Position numbers: made by a program
Shown: positions 27,001 to 33,000 of the stretch, piece after piece
How the letters are laid out: every line of letters begins with the position of its first letter
Numbering within the stretch: the first letter of the stretch is position 1
NCBI GenBank assembly: GCA_963662405.2
Contig: CAXXKT010000001.1
Coordinates: forward strand, 1,056,001-1,120,000
Direction of reading: 5' to 3'
DNA from: Syntrophales bacterium
GTDB lineage: Bacteria; Desulfobacterota; Syntrophia; Syntrophales; UBA2210
Length of the DNA: 64,000 nt

Positions 27001-30000
27001 TGCGTGGATGGCCATCAATGCCGCGAAATACACCTATGCGAGCAATTTTTATCAGATGTGCCGGAACCTGCGGGATATCGCCGCGGTGCCGATCTTCCGA
27101 GGCTGGAGCGCCGAATGGCAGAAGTCCCGGCGACTGGGAGGAAGATCCGATATATGACATCCTCTCAACGCAAAAGGATCATCACGATCCTCCGATGCCC
27201 CCGGCCCTTCTCTCCGTCCCGGGGTTATTCAATGATCGGGGGGAGGGATGCTTATTCGCCTTTCGCAGACCGACCGGGGACGGATTTTTCTCCCCAACAC
27301 GAAGATGGCAGCAGGTCATATCAGGTCCTGCGGAGGGATGACACGATTCATGCTGTCGAATGGGGATACCCGGTGAGTGGCCGAAATTGTCATTGACTTA
27401 TCGCTCAAAGATTCCGTATACTACGGAAAACGTAACGTGCAGCGATTGTTACCTTTCTCCATCATCCGGTTGACCTTGTCCATAGGAGGCCGCCATGAAG
27501 CCGAAGTTGGTATGTGGGGTAGCCGCAGTATTTCTTTCCATTGTCTTTTTCTGCTCCGTCACCGGAGCCGCCGTCTGGAACCACCGCGATGTAAAACTGA
27601 AAAACGAACGGGGAGAACAGATCGCGCCCGATCGGAACGGCGGTGATCCGTACAGTCCGCGCCGAACGTGCGGCGGTTGTCATCCCTATTCGACCATTAC
27701 CTCGGGGTTCCACTTCCAGCAGGGGTTTGACGCCATGAGCGACACCTACAACCCCTGGGAGCCGTGGATCCTGTCCCCGGGCATGTTCGGCAAGTGGTGA
27801 CCCCCCGCGAGCAGGTCTGGCCGTGTCGCCAGCAAAAACAACGATGACCCGAAGCAGATCGATCTGTCCACGTACGACTGGATCGGTGGCTATGGGAAAC
27901 TGAACCCCGCCAAGAAGATCAAATCGCCGTCCTGCGGCTGGTGCCATCCCGGCGGGGCCTCCATGGAATACGGGAGGAAGTGGGACGGTACCCCCGATTA
28001 TTCCATGAACCTTATCGAAGGGGAACGGCGTGCCGTGAACCCTCTCGACGGGGACTATTCGTCAAACCTGACTCCCGACGGCAAGAGTCATTTCAAGGAG
28101 AGCGGTGTCGTTGAGGCCGATTGTCTCCTCTGTCATATGAAGGGGTACAGTTTCGGCGCCCGTAATCAGCAGATCAACCGGAAGAACTATCGATGGGCCG
28201 CAACCGCCGGCGCCGGACTCGGAAATATCAAGGGCGCCATCTTCACCTTTGCCGACAAGGACGCGGGCCCGGGATCGAAGGAGTTTCTCACGGGGACCTG
28301 GAACTTTTCGGACCGTCCCGTCGTGAACTATAACTGGGACAATCGAAACCTCTTTACCCGTTCCGGTCGTCTGCGGGGTGAGGCGATAGCCAAAGAGGTC
28401 GAGACAAAGAGCTGTCTCCAGTGTCACCGGGGACCGGATGCGAAGAAGGTCGGCTGGGTCCATAAACCGGAATTCGATGCCCATTTCAAGGCGGGGCTTT
28501 GGTGCACCGACTGTCACAATCTGGTGGGAGAAACCGAAAAGGAGCGGTTGCACCATCAGATCGCCAAGGGGTGGCATCCCCTGGGGAGCGTGCGGAACGA
28601 TCTCGACGGTGTGGGGATGAAGACCTGCGCGGCGTGTCACCTGGAGGGGAAATACCGGGCCACCCGACCGGGGATGCCGGATGAGGCGAAAGATCCCACG
28701 AAGGTTCATGAGGAAAGATTCCCCGATGTCATGTTTCATTTCGATCTGATCAGCTGCGCCAATTGCCATTCCACGAGGCAACCGGCCATGTCGGGCTATC
28801 TCCTTGACATGGCGATGGGGAAACAGGTCTGGTACACGGCCGGGACACGGGAGGCCATCACCTGGAGTAATGATTTCGGTATCCTGACACCCGAACCCTG
28901 GGCCCCTTGGGTCACCCGGTATGACGCACGCAACGGTCTCGGAGAGCAGTACATCCCTGTTGTCCCCAAGATTGCCCAGTGGTTCGGCGAAAAGACGGAT
29001 CACATGGAGGTCCGGCCGATCATTCTGAAATATGTGAAAAAGGCGTACGGTGCGCTGAGCGCCCCCACTCTCGCGGCTGTCAAAGATGTCACCGGCAAGG
29101 CGGTCAAGCGCCCCACTATCGCGACGGATGCGCAGATCAAAGAGATGATCGAGTCACTTACAGAGATGGGGTTTCATAATGTGGTCTTCGTTTCCGATAA
29201 GATATACGAACTGAAGGACGGGACCGTGGTCTCCTACGAAGACCACCTCACGGCCCATCCCCATAACTTCCCCGTTCACCACAATATCGTCCCCATCGAC
29301 AGGGACGTGACATACGGATCGAGAGGAAAGCCTGACGGGTGTTACGACTGTCATTCCGATACGTCGACATTCTTCACCAGGATGCTGGTTCGAAATCCGG
29401 GGCGTTTCCTGGTTGAGGACTACCCGACCCCCAAAGAGCCGAATGCGGAGCCTCAGATGTATCAATGGGGGTTTAAAGAGGTGCCGATACCCGATGAAAT
29501 TACGGACGGCAAAAAATAGCGGCCTCTATCTGTGGCGATTTTCTCTGGCGGTTCTCTGTCTTCTCTTCGGTGTCCCCGCTGCTGTGGGCGCCGCGGAGGG
29601 AGACCCGGCCGTCATAACGGCGCGAGAGGCACATCGTATGATGCAGGAGCGGGGTGATATCACCTTCATCAATACCATGAGTGTCATCGAATGCCGGGAT
29701 CACCGGATTCCCGGATCGGTGTGCATCCCCTGCCCGAAATTCGAGGGGGAAATATCAAACATCGTGAAAGACAGGAATCGCCCCCTCGTTCTCTACTGTG
29801 CGAGTACCGGCTGCCATCGGAGTATGCATGCGGCCCGCACGGCCCTCGATCTCGGGTACCGGAATGTCTTTGTCCTTGAGGGTGGTCTGCCCGGATGGAA
29901 AGGGGCGGGTTTCTCGATTGAATACGAACGGCGGGTCCCCCGCACGGGGATCGCATCCATCAAACCGAAGGTGCTGAACCGGTGGGTAGCCGATAAAAGG

Positions 30001-33000
30001 GATATCCTGATTCTTGATATCCGGTCCCGGGATCTCTTCGACGCAGAGCATATCCCCGGGGCGGTCAATCGTCCCCTCGATGAACTTGAAGACACCTATC
30101 GGGAACTGCCGATGGACAAACGGATCATTGTGGTGGACGAACAGGGACATCGATCCTTCATCGCCGCATGCTATCTGTACGAGCGGGGGCTGGTGGATGT
30201 CCAACGTCTCTTCGGCGGGATGCAGGACTGGAGGTCCTTCATGAAAAGGGAGGAGTAGATGAACACCGCCTTGTCGATCGGAAGATGGATGCGTCATCTT
30301 CTCATAATCGCAGTGACAGTCGTTCTGGCCTGCCCTTCCGTGTCGGTTTATGCAGCCGGATACAGTATGTATGTTGCTACGGAACCTGTCCCGGCGGCCT
30401 CGGTCGACTGCCTCTCCTGTCATGATGATTACCTGTTTCGGACGGCCTACCCCGCCTCGGTACACGGCACCCTCGGGTGTGCGAGCTGTCATGATGGTAT
30501 CGTGGATAGCGAGAGCCACATGACGGGAGCGGAACGCTCCACGCTCACGGTCTGCGGGAGCTGCCACGCCGTCATAGCGGAGGAATACCGGCTCAATTAT
30601 CATTATCTGCACCAGGATTTTCAGTGTTACGACTGCCACCGTAATATCCACGCCGTCCAGAGTAGAGATACATCGATGAAACAGGCGACACTCCGGCAGT
30701 GCACCGAATGTCATGCCAACGAGGAATACGCCCATTCGGGACACGGCATCGCCGTCGCGGAGGGGAATGAGGATGCGGCGACCTGTTCGGACTGTCATGG
30801 GCTCCACAGCACGCGGGTCTACCATACGTCCCAGCAGGAATATCCCGCCGAGGCGCGGGAGTTCTATACTCGGACCTGCGTCAGGTGCCATGACGATCGG
30901 GGGATGATGGTCCGCAACGACCTCTCGACGTCCACCGTTGCGTCCTACCGGAGGACCTATCACGGGAAGGTCCAGGACATTGGTCACCCCACCCTGGTTG
31001 CGGGGTGTGCCGACTGTCATACCTCGCATAACATCCTCCCGAAGGATGATCCCGCGTCATCGATCCATCCCGACAATCTGGTCGAGAATTGTGGGAAGTG
31101 TCACACCGGCTTCCATCCGCGGTTCGTCGCCTATCAGGCTCACCCCGATTTCAGCAACCGGGAGCGATATCCCACGCTCTACTGGACAAACGTCTTGATG
31201 ATCGCGCTTCTGGGGGGAACCTTTCTCTTCTTCTGGGTGCATACCTTCCTCTGGTGGCGAAAGACGTATTGGGATAAACACTACATGGAAAAGATGGGGA
31301 TCAGGCCGCGCCTCCCCATGTCGGATACGGAAAGCCTGCAATCCATCGAACGGTTCTCGCGAAAAGATATCGTTGTCCACATCATCCTGGTCATCTCTTT
31401 CCTGACCCTCGTGGCCACGGGATTTCCCCTCAAGTATCATGATGCGCCCTGGGCACGGATCTTTGTCGAGCTGTGGGGCGGTGTTTCCCTCGCCGGGATC
31501 TTTCACCGGGTGGCGGCGGTGGTCCTCTTCGCCCTCTTTTTCTATATCCTGGTGCGGTCCGTCGGCTATCTCTTCCCGAGAAAGGCGGAGACACAGGGAT
31601 GGGTGGATCGTCTGTTTGGTGTGGAATCCCTCTTTTTCAACCGGAAGGACTGGCAGGACATGAAGGGGATGTTCCGGTGGTTCTTCGACCGGGGAGAACA
31701 ACCGCGATTTGATCGGTGGACCTACTGGGAGAAGTTCGATTTTCTCGCCGTCTTCTGGGGGATGGTGATCATCGGCGGCTCGGGGATATTCCTGATGGTT
31801 CCTGAATGGACCTCATATCTTTTCCCCGGTTGGATTCTCAATGTCGCGGCCCTGTTGCACTCGGAAGAGGCGCTCCTGGCCGCGCTCTTCATATTTACCG
31901 TGCATTTCTTCAATACCCATCTGATCCCGAAGAAATTCCCCATGGATCGAACGATATTCACGGGGAGGATAGCGCTTCATGAGCTCTATGAAGAGAAACG
32001 GGAACAGTACGAACGTCTGGTCGCCGAGGGAAAGCTGGACGAATTGAAACGGGACCATCCGGGTATATTCACCAAGCTTGTGTCATCTGTCTTCGGATTG
32101 GCGAGTCTCATCCTCGGCCTCCTCCTCGCCGTTATCATTCTCTGGTCGCTCATATTCCTGTAAGGAGCGAGGAGGCATTGCCTCAGTCCACCGATACCGC
32201 CCAAACGCCGATGTCCTTCACGTTTGTTCAGCCAAACAAGGCATTCGCGGTCTGCCACAGGAGTTTCAGAGTGACAGGCTGGACGTCCGTGGTTCCATGG
32301 GGCTGGAGTCGTTGCTGGACGAGGGCATGTCTCTTTTGATAGGCCCTGGAGGGAAGAAAGATAGAGCAGTTCGAATTGGCGAGTGTCGGAACCGTCATAT
32401 GAAATACCATTCGTATACGCACTCATAGCTACTATACACTCTCGCCAAGGGAAAAGACCGAGGCCCCCGACCGCCTTCTTGTTCGAAAGTACTGGTTGTC
32501 TTGTGGGGTAGTCGCCTCCTATGAGATCGTCTCGCCTATAATCTCCGTAACCGGCTTGATATCATGGATGAGAGCACCCACCTGCCCGTCTCCGGCAACG
32601 ACGGCAACCATGGTGGGATTGTTCGTGGAACCTGGTCGGCATCCCCATATATCGGACAGAAGGATACCCCCTTTCCGATTGAGCGATGGTTTCGTTCATC
32701 ACCACCCCGGGCTCTCATCGTGCACAGGTGATCGGTGCCGGATCAAGGGATTTATATGGCACGCAAAGTTTTTTTGATTGAATGCAGCACCAATATCTGT
32801 TATCATATGTTACCCCGTATGAAAGAATTTCAATGTGTTTCGCATCAGTTCGGCTGAGGTCGTTTTATTTTGTATACAATAGGTATGTCGGTGTGTCGTA
32901 CACGGCCGGATACTCGCCATTCTACAAGGAAGGGAACCCATGATTACATCAGCTGAAGATAGTCCTCTCTTTCGTATCGCCAATCCCCGAAGCATCGCCT

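What a model noticed while it worked through the whole genome (the two positions that open the first line are those of the whole stretch)
27495..32163. Octaheme cytochrome c selenoprotein in a rhodanese/quinol-dehydrogenase operon
Two adjacent gene calls (g01029+g01030) are one 674-aa periplasmic protein with eight CxxCH haem motifs and an in-frame TGA at codon 102 (GKW-U-PPASRSG); relatives have TGA or Cys at that very place, and the gene always sits before a double-rhodanese gene and a fused multihaem/cytochrome-b membrane protein. I read it as a selenocysteine-dependent relative of the octahaem tetrathionate reductase (OTR) fold that reduces a sulfur compound (tetrathionate, thiosulfate or polysulfide) with electrons from the quinone pool: a second family of multihaem selenoenzymes beside the pentahaem MccSep of Geobacter. 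If true, syntrophic Syntrophales own a selenium-dependent sulfur-respiration module not descr [...]
Evidence so far: Read-through of TGA joins g01029 (101 aa) and g01030 (518 aa) in frame. search_genomes: 55 of 151 Syntrophales genomes (G000 included) have the protein; the closest (72%, 70% id) keep one in-frame TGA at the same codon, others at 55-57% id have Cys (GKGC), most of the family lack the residue (GKW-SP). Rhodanese (g01031) and multihaem+cyt b (g01032; DmsE-like N-term, FdnI-like C-term, call 25) follow in 5 of 5 relatives' loci examined. A 5-bp hairpin lies 17-35 nt after the TGA. SelA, SelB, SelD, tRNA-Sec are in the genome (tables). No match to any PDB chain by sequence at E<=1; database homologues are named 'hypothetical', 'multiheme c-type cytochrome' or 'cytochrome c3 family'. 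A profile of [...]
(Added by a program. Inside this text positions count along the whole contig: contig position 1,056,001 is position 1 of the stretch shown here. "Call 12" and the like, gene names such as g00115 and contig names such as C1 are that model's own, and its searches are not shown. The text may have been shortened before it was handed on; [...] marks where a part breaks off. The agent that wrote the report below was given it as the finding of a first reader that could run no searches.)

Follow-up and report, generated by a model that had tools for sequence, protein, structure and literature searches.

The report
Selenocysteine octahaem cytochrome, rhodanese, quinol-oxidase operon
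Two "genes" are really one exported eight-haem enzyme whose internal stop codon very probably encodes selenocysteine; with a sulfur-carrier protein and a membrane quinol oxidase it probably lets a syntrophic bacterium pass electrons to a sulfur or selenium compound.

Summary
Window 27495-29519 (+) is one 674-aa frame with eight CxxCH motifs and a single in-frame TGA at codon 102.

The TGA very probably encodes selenocysteine:
- It stands at the same codon in ten distinct assemblies and in a second clade.
- Cys homologues occupy the same column.
- The stretch between the TGA and the next ATG has dN/dS 0.02-0.14.
- SelA, SelB, tRNA-Sec and SelD are in the genome, but selD reads frameshifted in this assembly.

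A better model (pLDDT 83.6) matches only OTR (1sp3, Z 9.7; Foldseek E 1.5e-5). A profile-profile comparison puts all eight haem motifs in register with the OTR family (92%). No OTR or MccSep model hits it by sequence.

Octahaem, double rhodanese and a CbcL-type nine-haem/cytochrome b protein are adjacent in 23 of 23 relatives' loci.

Sec-bearing members of the OTR family proper are common (15 of 30 loci) and already catalogued, so this is not "the second" multihaem selenoprotein family.

The substrate (polysulfide most likely) is inferred only. The SECIS-like hairpin is weak and does not set Sec genes apart from Cys homologues. This scan noted the same gene trio before in other genomes.

The parts
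27495..29519 (+). Octahaem cytochrome c selenoprotein gene (674 aa, signal peptide, 8 CxxCH, stop TAG); a divergent branch of the OTR superfamily
27798..27800 (+). In-frame TGA, codon 102, read as selenocysteine (GKW-U-PP)
27817..27832 (+). SECIS-like hairpin: CUGGC stem, CGUGUC loop, GCCAG stem, 20-35 nt from the U of UGA
   Evidence: weak; it also occurs in Cys homologues
29494..30258 (+). Exported tandem rhodanese. The likely ATG at 29494 follows AGAGG; the mechanical ORF starts at TTG 29413. It overlaps the last 26 nt of the octahaem gene. The first domain carries LYCASTGC; the second has Asp where the catalytic Cys would be.
30259..32163 (+). CbcL-type inner-membrane cytochrome: nine CxxCH in the N-terminal half, six TM helices with a HydC/FdnI-like cytochrome b in the C-terminal half. 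Its ATG directly follows the rhodanese stop codon.

Best explanation
A three-gene respiratory module.

(1) A CbcL-type membrane cytochrome (nine c haems plus a dihaem cytochrome b) oxidises menaquinol and hands the electrons to the periplasm.

(2) They reach a periplasmic octahaem enzyme, a remote and enlarged relative of octahaem tetrathionate reductase (OTR). Its UGA codon 102 is decoded as selenocysteine. Sec102 lies in the stretch between haems 1 and 2, which in OTR builds the pocket of the catalytic haem 2. I infer that it attacks a chalcogen-chalcogen bond of the substrate, and that the adduct is then reduced through the haem chain.

(3) The exported tandem rhodanese binds and delivers the substrate as sulfane sulfur (or selenium). 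The most likely substrate is polysulfide/elemental sulfur. Tetrathionate, thiosulfate or selenite are alternatives.

Shown: one frame, a conserved TGA, Cys homologues, purifying selection across the TGA, Sec machinery genes, OTR-like fold and haem register, and conserved gene order.

Inferred: Sec insertion itself, the electron path, the place of Sec at haem 2, and the substrate.
For: Sec:
- The TGA is at the same codon in 6 of 6 closest genomes and in 3 further assemblies. A TGA in the same column occurs in the long-form clade (G191).
- Cys stands in that column in sister clades. The U7+C2 clade has 99% support.
- dN/dS is 0.02-0.14 for codons 103-156, which lie between the TGA and the next ATG. 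The flanks give 0.07-0.13.
- TGA is an ordinary stop in the window: 9 of 32 ORFs of >=300 aa end in it.
- SelB 363 bits, tRNA-Sec 75.6 bits, SelA 607 bits, SelD. SelB is over its cut-off in all 7 TGA-bearing genomes.

Enzyme, not a wire:
- There are 7 invariant non-motif His for 8 haems.

OTR kinship:
-.
- In OTR proper an invariant Cys/Sec sits 10 residues before haem 2 and 8-9 after the Lys that corresponds to the Lys56 haem ligand.

Link of residue 102 to haem 2:
- In the GKG half of the family, Cys/Sec102 and the first Cys of the haem-2 motif are present or absent together. There are 3 independent co-losses and 0 in the opposite direction.

Operon:
- Octahaem-rhodanese-CbcL-like is found in 23 of 23 loci. 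The genes overlap or abut.
- CbcL architecture is described in a passage of PMC6295460.

Sulfur:
- Rhodaneses flank the gene. A second, ExtH-like rhodanese lies between the decahaem and octahaem genes in 17 of 23 loci and downstream in one more.
- MccSep, the one characterised multihaem selenoenzyme, is a polysulfide reductase (PMC13510729; abstract, introduction, results and discussion read). Its gene cluster also holds a rhodanese, ExtH (PMC6148476, passages).
Against: - No experiment shows Sec insertion.
- The hairpin is only 4-6 bp. The same GGC-CGUGUC-GCC hairpin stands in Cys homologues (L015, L017), and non-Sec homologues fold as strongly, so it does not set Sec genes apart. OTR-family Sec genes have a far clearer SECIS, a 7-bp stem with an AGGU loop.
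- selD of G000 reads as two frames, from one extra G in a GGGG run. If that is real and not an assembly error, this strain could not make Sec.
- Most family members have Q, S, L or G at column 102, so the residue is not essential to the fold or to every member's chemistry.
- The co-variation with haem 2 rests on 3 events (sign test p 0.25).
- hhalign puts OTR's ligand Lys on K114 and not on K100, with near-zero confidence in that stretch. Sec102 is therefore not shown to be positionally homologous to OTR Cys64.
- I could not measure the distance from Sec102 to any haem, because no coordinates are given out.
- The Sec clade has lost the decahaem and the ExtH-like rhodanese that the rest of the family keeps.
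- OTR itself also reduces nitrite and hydroxylamine (title of Atkinson et al. 2007 in a reference list; the MccSep discussion says nitrite and thiosulfate).
Confidence: 0.6

Rival explanations
1. The protein is a genuine Sec octahaem, but its job is not sulfur reduction. It would be either a nitrite/hydroxylamine-type reductase, as OTR is in vitro, or a periplasmic electron carrier in an extracellular electron-transfer chain fed by the CbcL-like protein. The rhodaneses would then serve another purpose.
For: CbcL is known from extracellular electron transfer in Geobacter. Most family loci also hold a decahaem cytochrome upstream (19 of 23). OTR is promiscuous. Most family members lack Cys/Sec at column 102.
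Against: Rhodanese genes are fixed in the cluster (23 of 23). There are 7 distal His for 8 haems, which points to a catalytic haem. Sec/Cys alternation is typical of redox-active catalytic residues. I saw no outer-membrane conduit gene in the loci I looked at, but I screened only for the five cluster genes.
Confidence: 0.2
2. The module reduces selenite or tellurite, for detoxification or respiration, rather than sulfur compounds.
For: MccSep also reduces selenite. The second rhodanese and the decahaem of relatives hit NCBIfam models of the 'selenite/tellurite reduction operon' (ExtH 72 bits; ExtM/N/O 30-34 bits), all far below their cut-offs.
Against: Those hits are weak and generic for multihaem and rhodanese proteins. 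The Sec clade lacks exactly those two genes. Selenite is scarce in the habitats concerned (my inference).
Confidence: 0.1
3. The TGA is a true stop. The locus would then hold two genes (101 aa and 518 aa), or a pseudogene.
For: Gene callers split it: 13 of the best 120 database relatives are 468-553-aa C-terminal pieces. The SECIS is weak. selD reads frameshifted.
Against: The 54 codons between the TGA and the next ATG include the haem-2 CxxCH, are conserved in frame in all relatives, and have dN/dS 0.02-0.14. The TGA is kept at one codon across two families of the order and in a second clade. Cys homologues are unbroken.
Confidence: 0.05

Closest known systems
Octahaem tetrathionate reductase family (OTR, Shewanella oneidensis SO4144, PDB 1sp3; NCBIfam TIGR04315), including its Sec-bearing members
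   Same: Eight c haems in the same order. All eight CxxCH motifs align in register by hhalign (92.4%, E 5e-7, 463 columns). 1sp3 is the only structural match (Z 9.7, rmsd 4.5, 331 of 436 residues; Foldseek E 1.5e-5). There are 7 distal His for 8 haems. A Cys/Sec lies in the segment between haems 1 and 2, 29 residues after the conserved distal His against 23-26 in OTR. The Sec/Cys alternation is found in both families.
   Different: No sequence-level hit: TIGR04315 does not appear at E<=10, and G000 has no TIGR04315 match. The protein is about 200 residues longer, with about 40-residue insertions between haems 1-2, 2-3 and 3-4. Sec is 45 residues before haem 2, not 10. The motif is GKW-U-PP, not NNF-U-I. 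The hairpin is small, not the 7-bp AGGU-loop SECIS of OTR Sec genes. The cluster is fixed with rhodaneses and a CbcL-like protein. I did not see these, by BLAST with my references, within the 1.5-kb flanks of 30 OTR loci; that search was limited.
MccSep / ExtKL of Geobacter sulfurreducens (GSU2937-2936; NCBIfam NF040886), a pentahaem Sec polysulfide reductase (PMC13510729)
   Same: A periplasmic multihaem c cytochrome with one Sec encoded by a UGA that splits the gene call. Sec is followed by Pro (GUP against WUPP). A rhodanese gene lies in the same cluster (ExtH). Cys-type homologues exist.
   Different: Five haems, not eight. In MccSep the Sec sits in a C-terminal Ig-like domain (U325) and works with a haem-ligating Cys239. 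Here Sec is near the N-terminus, and the mature protein has no Cys outside the CxxCH motifs. There is no NF040886 hit for the protein or in the genome, and MccSep did not appear in the PDB fold or sequence searches. Whether its entry is in those copies is unknown to me.
CbcL of Geobacter sulfurreducens (for the third gene)
   Same: Nine CxxCH in the N-terminal half and six TM helices of HydC/FdnI type in the C-terminal half. Pfam Ni_hydr_CYTB and TIGR01583 give weak hits.
   Different: I did not test sequence kinship to GSU0274 itself. CbcL serves extracellular metal and electrode reduction, whereas here the gene is fixed beside a rhodanese and an OTR-like enzyme.
Sud/Psr of Wolinella and SbdP of Aquifex (rhodanese as sulfur supplier to a sulfur reductase)
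   Same: The logic is the same: a periplasmic rhodanese next to a quinol-fed reductase. I recall this from the literature; the title of Aussignargues et al. 2012 appears in a reference list.
   Different: Those reductases are molybdoenzymes, not cytochromes.

Membership tests
Bacterial selenoprotein (UGA = Sec) | In-frame UGA conserved among orthologues, with coding conservation on both sides | tested here: met
   6 of 6 closest genomes plus L070, L219, L258 and G191; dN/dS 0.02-0.14 after the TGA
Bacterial selenoprotein (UGA = Sec) | Homologues with Cys at the aligned position | tested here: met
   GKWC (P0027, P0034) is sister to the Sec clade; GKGC clades also exist
Bacterial selenoprotein (UGA = Sec) | SECIS stem-loop shortly after the UGA | tested here: inconclusive
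   A hairpin lies at +20..+35 in 9 of 9 distinct Sec sequences. 85% of cells pair, and pair 21-34 reads CG in 4, UA in 3 and other in 2. It is 4-6 bp only and is also present in Cys homologues.
Bacterial selenoprotein (UGA = Sec) | selA, selB, selD and tRNA-Sec in the genome | tested here: met
   Caveat: selD reads in two frames in this assembly.
Bacterial selenoprotein (UGA = Sec) | Selenium in the protein | not testable with these tools
   needs 75Se labelling or mass spectrometry
OTR family (TIGR04315) | Score over the family model's cut-off (375 bits) | tested here: not met
   no TIGR04315 hit at E<=10; no match in G000
OTR family (TIGR04315) | Eight CxxCH in the OTR order; OTR fold | tested here: met
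   hhalign 92.4%, all eight motifs in register; 1sp3 Z 9.7 and Foldseek E 1.5e-5
OTR family (TIGR04315) | Lys ligand 18 residues, and Cys/Sec 10 residues, before the haem-2 CxxCH | tested here: not met
   Here K100 and U102 lie 47 and 45 residues before haem 2, and invariant K114 lies 33 before it. Functional equivalence remains open.
OTR family (TIGR04315) | Tetrathionate reductase activity | not testable with these tools
   needs an enzyme assay
MccSep/ExtKL (NF040886) | Five haems, C-terminal Ig-like domain with a DGUP loop, Cys-ligated haem 2 | tested here: not met
   Eight haems, Sec at residue 102, no free Cys; no NF040886 hit; features taken from PMC13510729
CbcL-type quinol oxidase (third gene) | Nine CxxCH in the N-terminal half plus six TM helices of a HydC/FdnI-like cytochrome b | tested here: met
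   9 motifs; a signal segment plus 6 hydrophobic segments; Ni_hydr_CYTB 29.5 bits and TIGR01583 27.8 bits, both below their cut-offs; definition
Rhodanese (second gene) | Pfam PF00581 over its cut-off; catalytic Cys loop | tested here: met
   102.3 bits in two stretches. The first domain has LYCASTGC; the second has Asp at the Cys position (sequence; my reading of the loop is from recall).

The most novel reading that the evidence does not exclude
Sec102 stands on the distal side of the catalytic haem 2 with no helper cysteine. It would then be a natural selenolate at, or bonded to, a c-type haem iron, that is, a His/Sec-ligated haem, the selenium counterpart of the His/Cys haems of TsdA/SoxA.

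Cys/Sec at this column would be ancestral to the family, because it sits at the base of both halves of the tree. In the long-form clade it would pair with the lone Cys of a degenerate CGWTH motif.

The module would give obligately syntrophic Syntrophales a menaquinol-fed polysulfide/selenite respiration. That would spare them reverse electron transport whenever sulfur is at hand.
Probability: 0.2. Interest if true: 0.85.

Novelty: new variant of a known kind. Interest (0 to 1): 0.62.

Why it matters
Only one multihaem selenoenzyme (MccSep) has been characterised. The Sec-bearing OTR family is catalogued but unstudied.

This third, sequence-distinct family is split into two 'hypothetical proteins' by gene callers. 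It is confined, as far as I searched, to uncultured Syntrophales-type genomes, and it always travels with rhodaneses and a quinol oxidase.

If it reduces polysulfide or a related compound, fatty-acid- and aromatic-degrading syntrophs of digesters and sediments would have a selenium-dependent respiratory outlet that current metabolic models omit.

It would also help to say what OTR-type cytochromes do in nature, which is still unclear. Finally, the haem-2 motif varies together with residue 102, which offers a natural series for studying how a chalcogen nucleophile works beside a haem.

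Tried and rejected
Of the loci returned, only L070 encodes the family.
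- hhalign with -glob gave nonsense; I repeated it in local mode.
- PDB sequence searches with the protein and with profile A1 gave nothing better than E 0.14.
- In the wide fold search, every match other than 1sp3 had Z<=3.7 and covered only residues ~496-588.
- BLAST of my rhodanese and CbcL-like references against ORFs in the 1.5-kb flanks of 30 OTR-family loci found no rhodanese. The only hits were the OTR genes themselves. The flanks are too short to conclude anything.
- No RNA holder was listed for the operon, so I ran no read laying.
- Atlas look-alikes are unnamed multihaem clusters of Thermodesulfobacteriota.
- The decahaem gene of relatives was not found in G000 with that one query.
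- Literature:
  - 'tetrathionate reductase' + 'Cys64' gave 0 papers.
  - The BSepDB and deep-Sep main texts have no 'cytochrome' or 'heme'. I did not open their supplements, which may list this family.
  - Searches 'selenocysteine' + 'multiheme cytochrome' (10 papers), 'octaheme' + 'selenocysteine' (9 papers) and multiheme/rhodanese/Syntrophus/cytochrome b turned up no description of this family. The library covers open-access papers only.
- I rejected an alternative genetic code as the explanation.
- I considered a complex prediction of octahaem with rhodanese and did not run it, because an enzyme with its carrier is a poor case for that test.

Full report
**What is in the sequence**

Under table 11 the region holds two ORFs, 27495..27800 (101 aa) and 27963..29519 (518 aa). 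With TGA read through they form one 674-aa frame with a single odd codon. The TGA is at 27798-27800, in the context GKW-TGA-PPASRSG.

The frame has an AGGAGG 6 nt before its ATG and an N-terminal hydrophobic segment at residues 5-23. It carries eight CxxCH motifs at residues 59, 147, 210, 307, 337, 378, 421 and 616. The mature protein has no cysteine outside those motifs.

Pfam and NCBIfam give only generic multihaem hits. No OTR (TIGR04315), MccSep/ExtKL (NF040886) or GSU2204 model appears even at E<=10.

**Is the TGA decoded?**

- *Conservation of the TGA.* A six-frame search of 339 genomes of the order found the protein in 92. All six matches at 70-100% identity (G000, G222, G230, G228 of one family; G319, G320 of another) carry one TGA, and in all six the context is GKW*PP. 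Three further assemblies add distinct GKW*PP sequences (L070; L219 and L258).
- *A second Sec clade.* G191 encodes an ~880-aa long form only 53% identical to the query. It has FGKG*TPG, a TGA in the column where its close relatives read GKGC.
- *Cys homologues.* Ungapped, FGKWUPPASRSGRV lines up with FGKGCSPASYSGRV. Cys homologues therefore exist in both halves of the family (GKWC: P0027, P0034; GKGC: many).
- *Purifying selection.* The next ATG after the TGA is 55 codons downstream in every Sec-type gene. The stretch in between includes the haem-2 CxxCH. Its dN/dS is 0.02-0.14, as low as in the flanks (0.07-0.13).
- *Genetic code.* TGA is an ordinary stop here: 9 of 32 ORFs of >=300 aa in the window end in it.
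- *Sec machinery.* The genome has SelB (363 bits), tRNA-Sec (75.6 bits), SelA (607 bits) and SelD. SelB is over its cut-off in all 7 TGA-bearing genomes. It is also present in 4 of 4 genomes with Cys or Phe in that column, so it does not discriminate.
- *Split gene calls.* Among the best 120 database relatives, 13 are 468-553-aa C-terminal pieces at 64-99% identity. Six long-form entries begin just after column 102. These are the footprint of gene callers stopping at the TGA.

**Weak points of the Sec reading**

The hairpin is small. Counted from the U of UGA, it is CUGGC (20-24), CGUGUC, GCCAG (31-35). On nine distinct Sec-type sequences:
- 85% of the cells pair, against 79.5 ± 2.5% in shuffles, of which 3 of 500 were as high.
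- Three pairs never vary.
- Pair 21-34 is C-G in 4, U-A in 3 and unpaired in 2.
- G191 extends the stem to 9 bp with a bulge.

But the same GGC-CGUGUC-GCC hairpin stands in the Cys homologues L015 and L017, and non-Sec homologues fold as strongly in this GC-rich stretch. The hairpin therefore fits a SECIS but does not prove one. It may be a relic in the Cys forms, or simply the codons of G-R-V-A.

Secondly, selD of G000 carries its own Sec codon (GAG-TGA-ACK). It then changes frame at an extra G in a GGGG run. The HpaB-like gene just upstream of the operon is also split between two frames. I therefore think these are assembly indels, but I cannot show it.

**What the protein is**

With an alignment of 64 family members (A1), AlphaFold gave mean pLDDT 83.6 and pTM 0.86. 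Confidence is lower (54-74) around residues 60-110.
- Foldseek against the PDB found one significant match, 1sp3, the octahaem tetrathionate reductase of Shewanella (E 1.5e-5, 547 columns; the next hit has E 0.23).
- The search of 48,161 representative chains that does not lean on Foldseek also found only 1sp3 above Z 5: Z 9.7, rmsd 4.5 Å, 331 of 436 residues, model 27-668 on chain 1-436. The next hit has Z 3.7.
- I fetched 30 loci of the OTR family proper (TIGR04315) from 401 genomes of the phylum, aligned them and compared the profiles. hhalign gave 92.4% probability, E 5e-7 and 463 columns, with all eight haem motifs in register.

The protein is thus a remote, enlarged branch of the OTR superfamily. 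It has insertions of about 40 residues between haems 1-2, 2-3 and 3-4. It is not a member of TIGR04315, for which G000 has no match.

A1 has seven invariant non-motif histidines (H30, H73, H330, H354, H405, H415, H596) for eight haems, and an invariant K114. One haem with unusual ligation is what OTR has: a passage in PMC3769277 says haem 2, bound at C74xxC77H78, is ligated by Lys56.

**Sec in the OTR family proper**

This bears on novelty.
- Of the 30 best OTR loci, 15 have one in-frame TGA and 15 have Cys, always in NNF-[U/C]-I. The position is 10 residues before the haem-2 motif and 8-9 after a conserved GK. With Lys56 and Cys74 as anchors, this is residue 64 of the Shewanella enzyme.
- Those genes have a textbook SECIS, a 7-bp stem with an AGGU loop 20 nt after the UGA.

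So multihaem selenoproteins already number at least MccSep/ExtKL and the OTR family, and the present family is a further one.

The Sec here lies in the same haem-1-to-haem-2 segment, 29 residues after the conserved distal His (23-26 in OTR). But it is 45 residues before haem 2, not 10. In this stretch hhalign aligns OTR's GK with K114, at near-zero confidence. Positional homology of U102 with OTR Cys64 is therefore not established.

**Evidence that residue 102 belongs to the haem-2 site**

Across 140 rows (database hits of >=630 aa plus locus translations; not independent), column 102 co-varies with the haem-2 motif:

| Column 102 | Rows | Haem-2 motif |
|---|---|---|
| L, S or Q | 72 | CxxCH in all |
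| G | 28 | no Cys in any (AxxLH, PxxTH and the like) |
| C | 17 | CxxTH 12, CxxIH 1, CxxYM 2, CxxCH 2 |
| U | 8 | CxxCH in the GKW clade (read directly), CxxTH in G191 |

On a FastTree tree:
- The family splits into a GKW half and a GKG half.
- The Sec clade (7 rows) with its Cys sisters (2 rows) forms a 99%-supported clade, sister to the S/L/Q clade.
- In the GKG half, the Cys forms are basal and the G clade is nested.

Loss of Cys102 coincides with loss of the first haem-2 Cys three separate times (the G clade; P0007/L049; P0067) and never runs the other way. That is too few events for significance (sign test p 0.25). His151 and the PGGG motif that follows stay conserved even where both Cys are gone. 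I cannot explain this.

**Gene neighbourhood**

In 23 loci other than the window, the order octahaem, double rhodanese, multihaem/cytochrome b is kept in 23 of 23.
- Nineteen of the 23 have a decahaem cytochrome upstream.
- Seventeen have a ~300-aa exported two-domain rhodanese between the decahaem and the octahaem. One more has it downstream.
- That rhodanese hits 3-mercaptopyruvate-sulfurtransferase and ExtH models weakly.
- The four other GKW-U loci, like the window, lack the decahaem and this second rhodanese. The decahaem was not found in G000 with that query.

In the window the rhodanese gene (likely start 29494) overlaps the end of the octahaem gene, and the third gene starts right after the rhodanese stop. 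The third protein has nine CxxCH, then six hydrophobic helices with weak FdnI/HydC-type hits. This is the architecture described for CbcL of Geobacter (passage of PMC6295460).

**Mechanism proposed**

Menaquinol is oxidised by the CbcL-like protein. Electrons pass through its nine c haems to the octahaem enzyme. At haem 2 a selenolate attacks an S-S (or Se) bond of a substrate handed over by the rhodanese, and the adduct is reduced.

The model is MccSep. There Sec325 attacks polysulfide or selenite next to a Cys-ligated haem, the enzyme is essential for sulfur respiration, and U325C/A variants are nearly dead (PMC13510729). Its cluster also has a rhodanese (PMC6148476).

I put polysulfide/sulfur first at about 40%, tetrathionate or thiosulfate at about 20%, selenite at about 10%, and something else for the rest. 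None of this was tested here.

**Distribution and novelty**

All 74 loci from the species-representative genome collection are metagenome-assembled genomes, almost all labelled Syntrophales, Syntrophaceae, Smithella or 'Deltaproteobacteria'. Column 102 in those 74 loci reads:

| Column 102 | Loci |
|---|---|
| TGA | 5 |
| Cys | 5 |
| L | 25 |
| G | 13 |
| S | 10 |
| Q | 5 |
| F | 4 |
| not read by my pattern | 7 |

I found no paper describing the family (searches; open-access library only). Earlier notes of this scan describe the same trio in other genomes (e1-7676031, e1-7676034). I saw them after reaching the same reading.

I rate it a new variant of a known kind. It is interesting mainly for what it may say about syntroph physiology and about the natural role of OTR-type enzymes.

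Noticed in passing
G000:C3:552135-553065 (outside the window; L292): selD carries its own Sec codon (GAG-TGA-ACK). It is read in two frames because of one extra G in a GGGG run near 552577. This is either an assembly homopolymer error or a real frameshift; a real one would disable selenoprotein synthesis in this strain.
   Followed up: partly
window 24954-27396: The HpaB-family gene just upstream of the operon is split. The N-terminal domain is in 24954..26207 and the C-terminal HpaB domain is in another frame, 25651..26496. A further ORF, 26638..27396, begins like a degenerate second copy of its N-terminus. Together with selD this suggests indel errors in the assembly, or decaying genes.
   Followed up: partly
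relatives: L015, L017, L047, L049, L034 and P-hits: In the GKG half of the family the haem-2 motif is degenerate. It reads CGWTH where Cys/Sec102 is present, and AGNLH or PGWTH (no Cys) where it is Gly. His151 and PGGG stay conserved throughout. A CxxTH site lacking the second Cys is, as far as I recall, unprecedented for c-haem attachment. Cys102 and Cys147 may form a dithiol or selenylsulfide pair there.
   Followed up: partly
L168-L197 (OTR family, TIGR04315, other Desulfobacterota): Half of the sampled true OTR genes (15 of 30) are selenoproteins, with U at the invariant active-site Cys (NNF-U-I) and a clear 7-bp AGGU-loop SECIS 20 nt after the UGA.
   Followed up: yes
L047 (G191), L049 (G309) and P0003-P0011: A long form of the octahaem (860-908 aa) matches query residues ~494-665 a second time. 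This suggests a duplicated beta-rich domain between haems 7 and 8.
   Followed up: no
window 29494-30258: The rhodanese's first domain reads LYCAS where NCBIfam's 'rhodanese_LYCAU' selenoprotein family has LYCAU (62.6 bits, below the cut-off of 115). It is a non-Sec cousin of a known Sec rhodanese.
   Followed up: no
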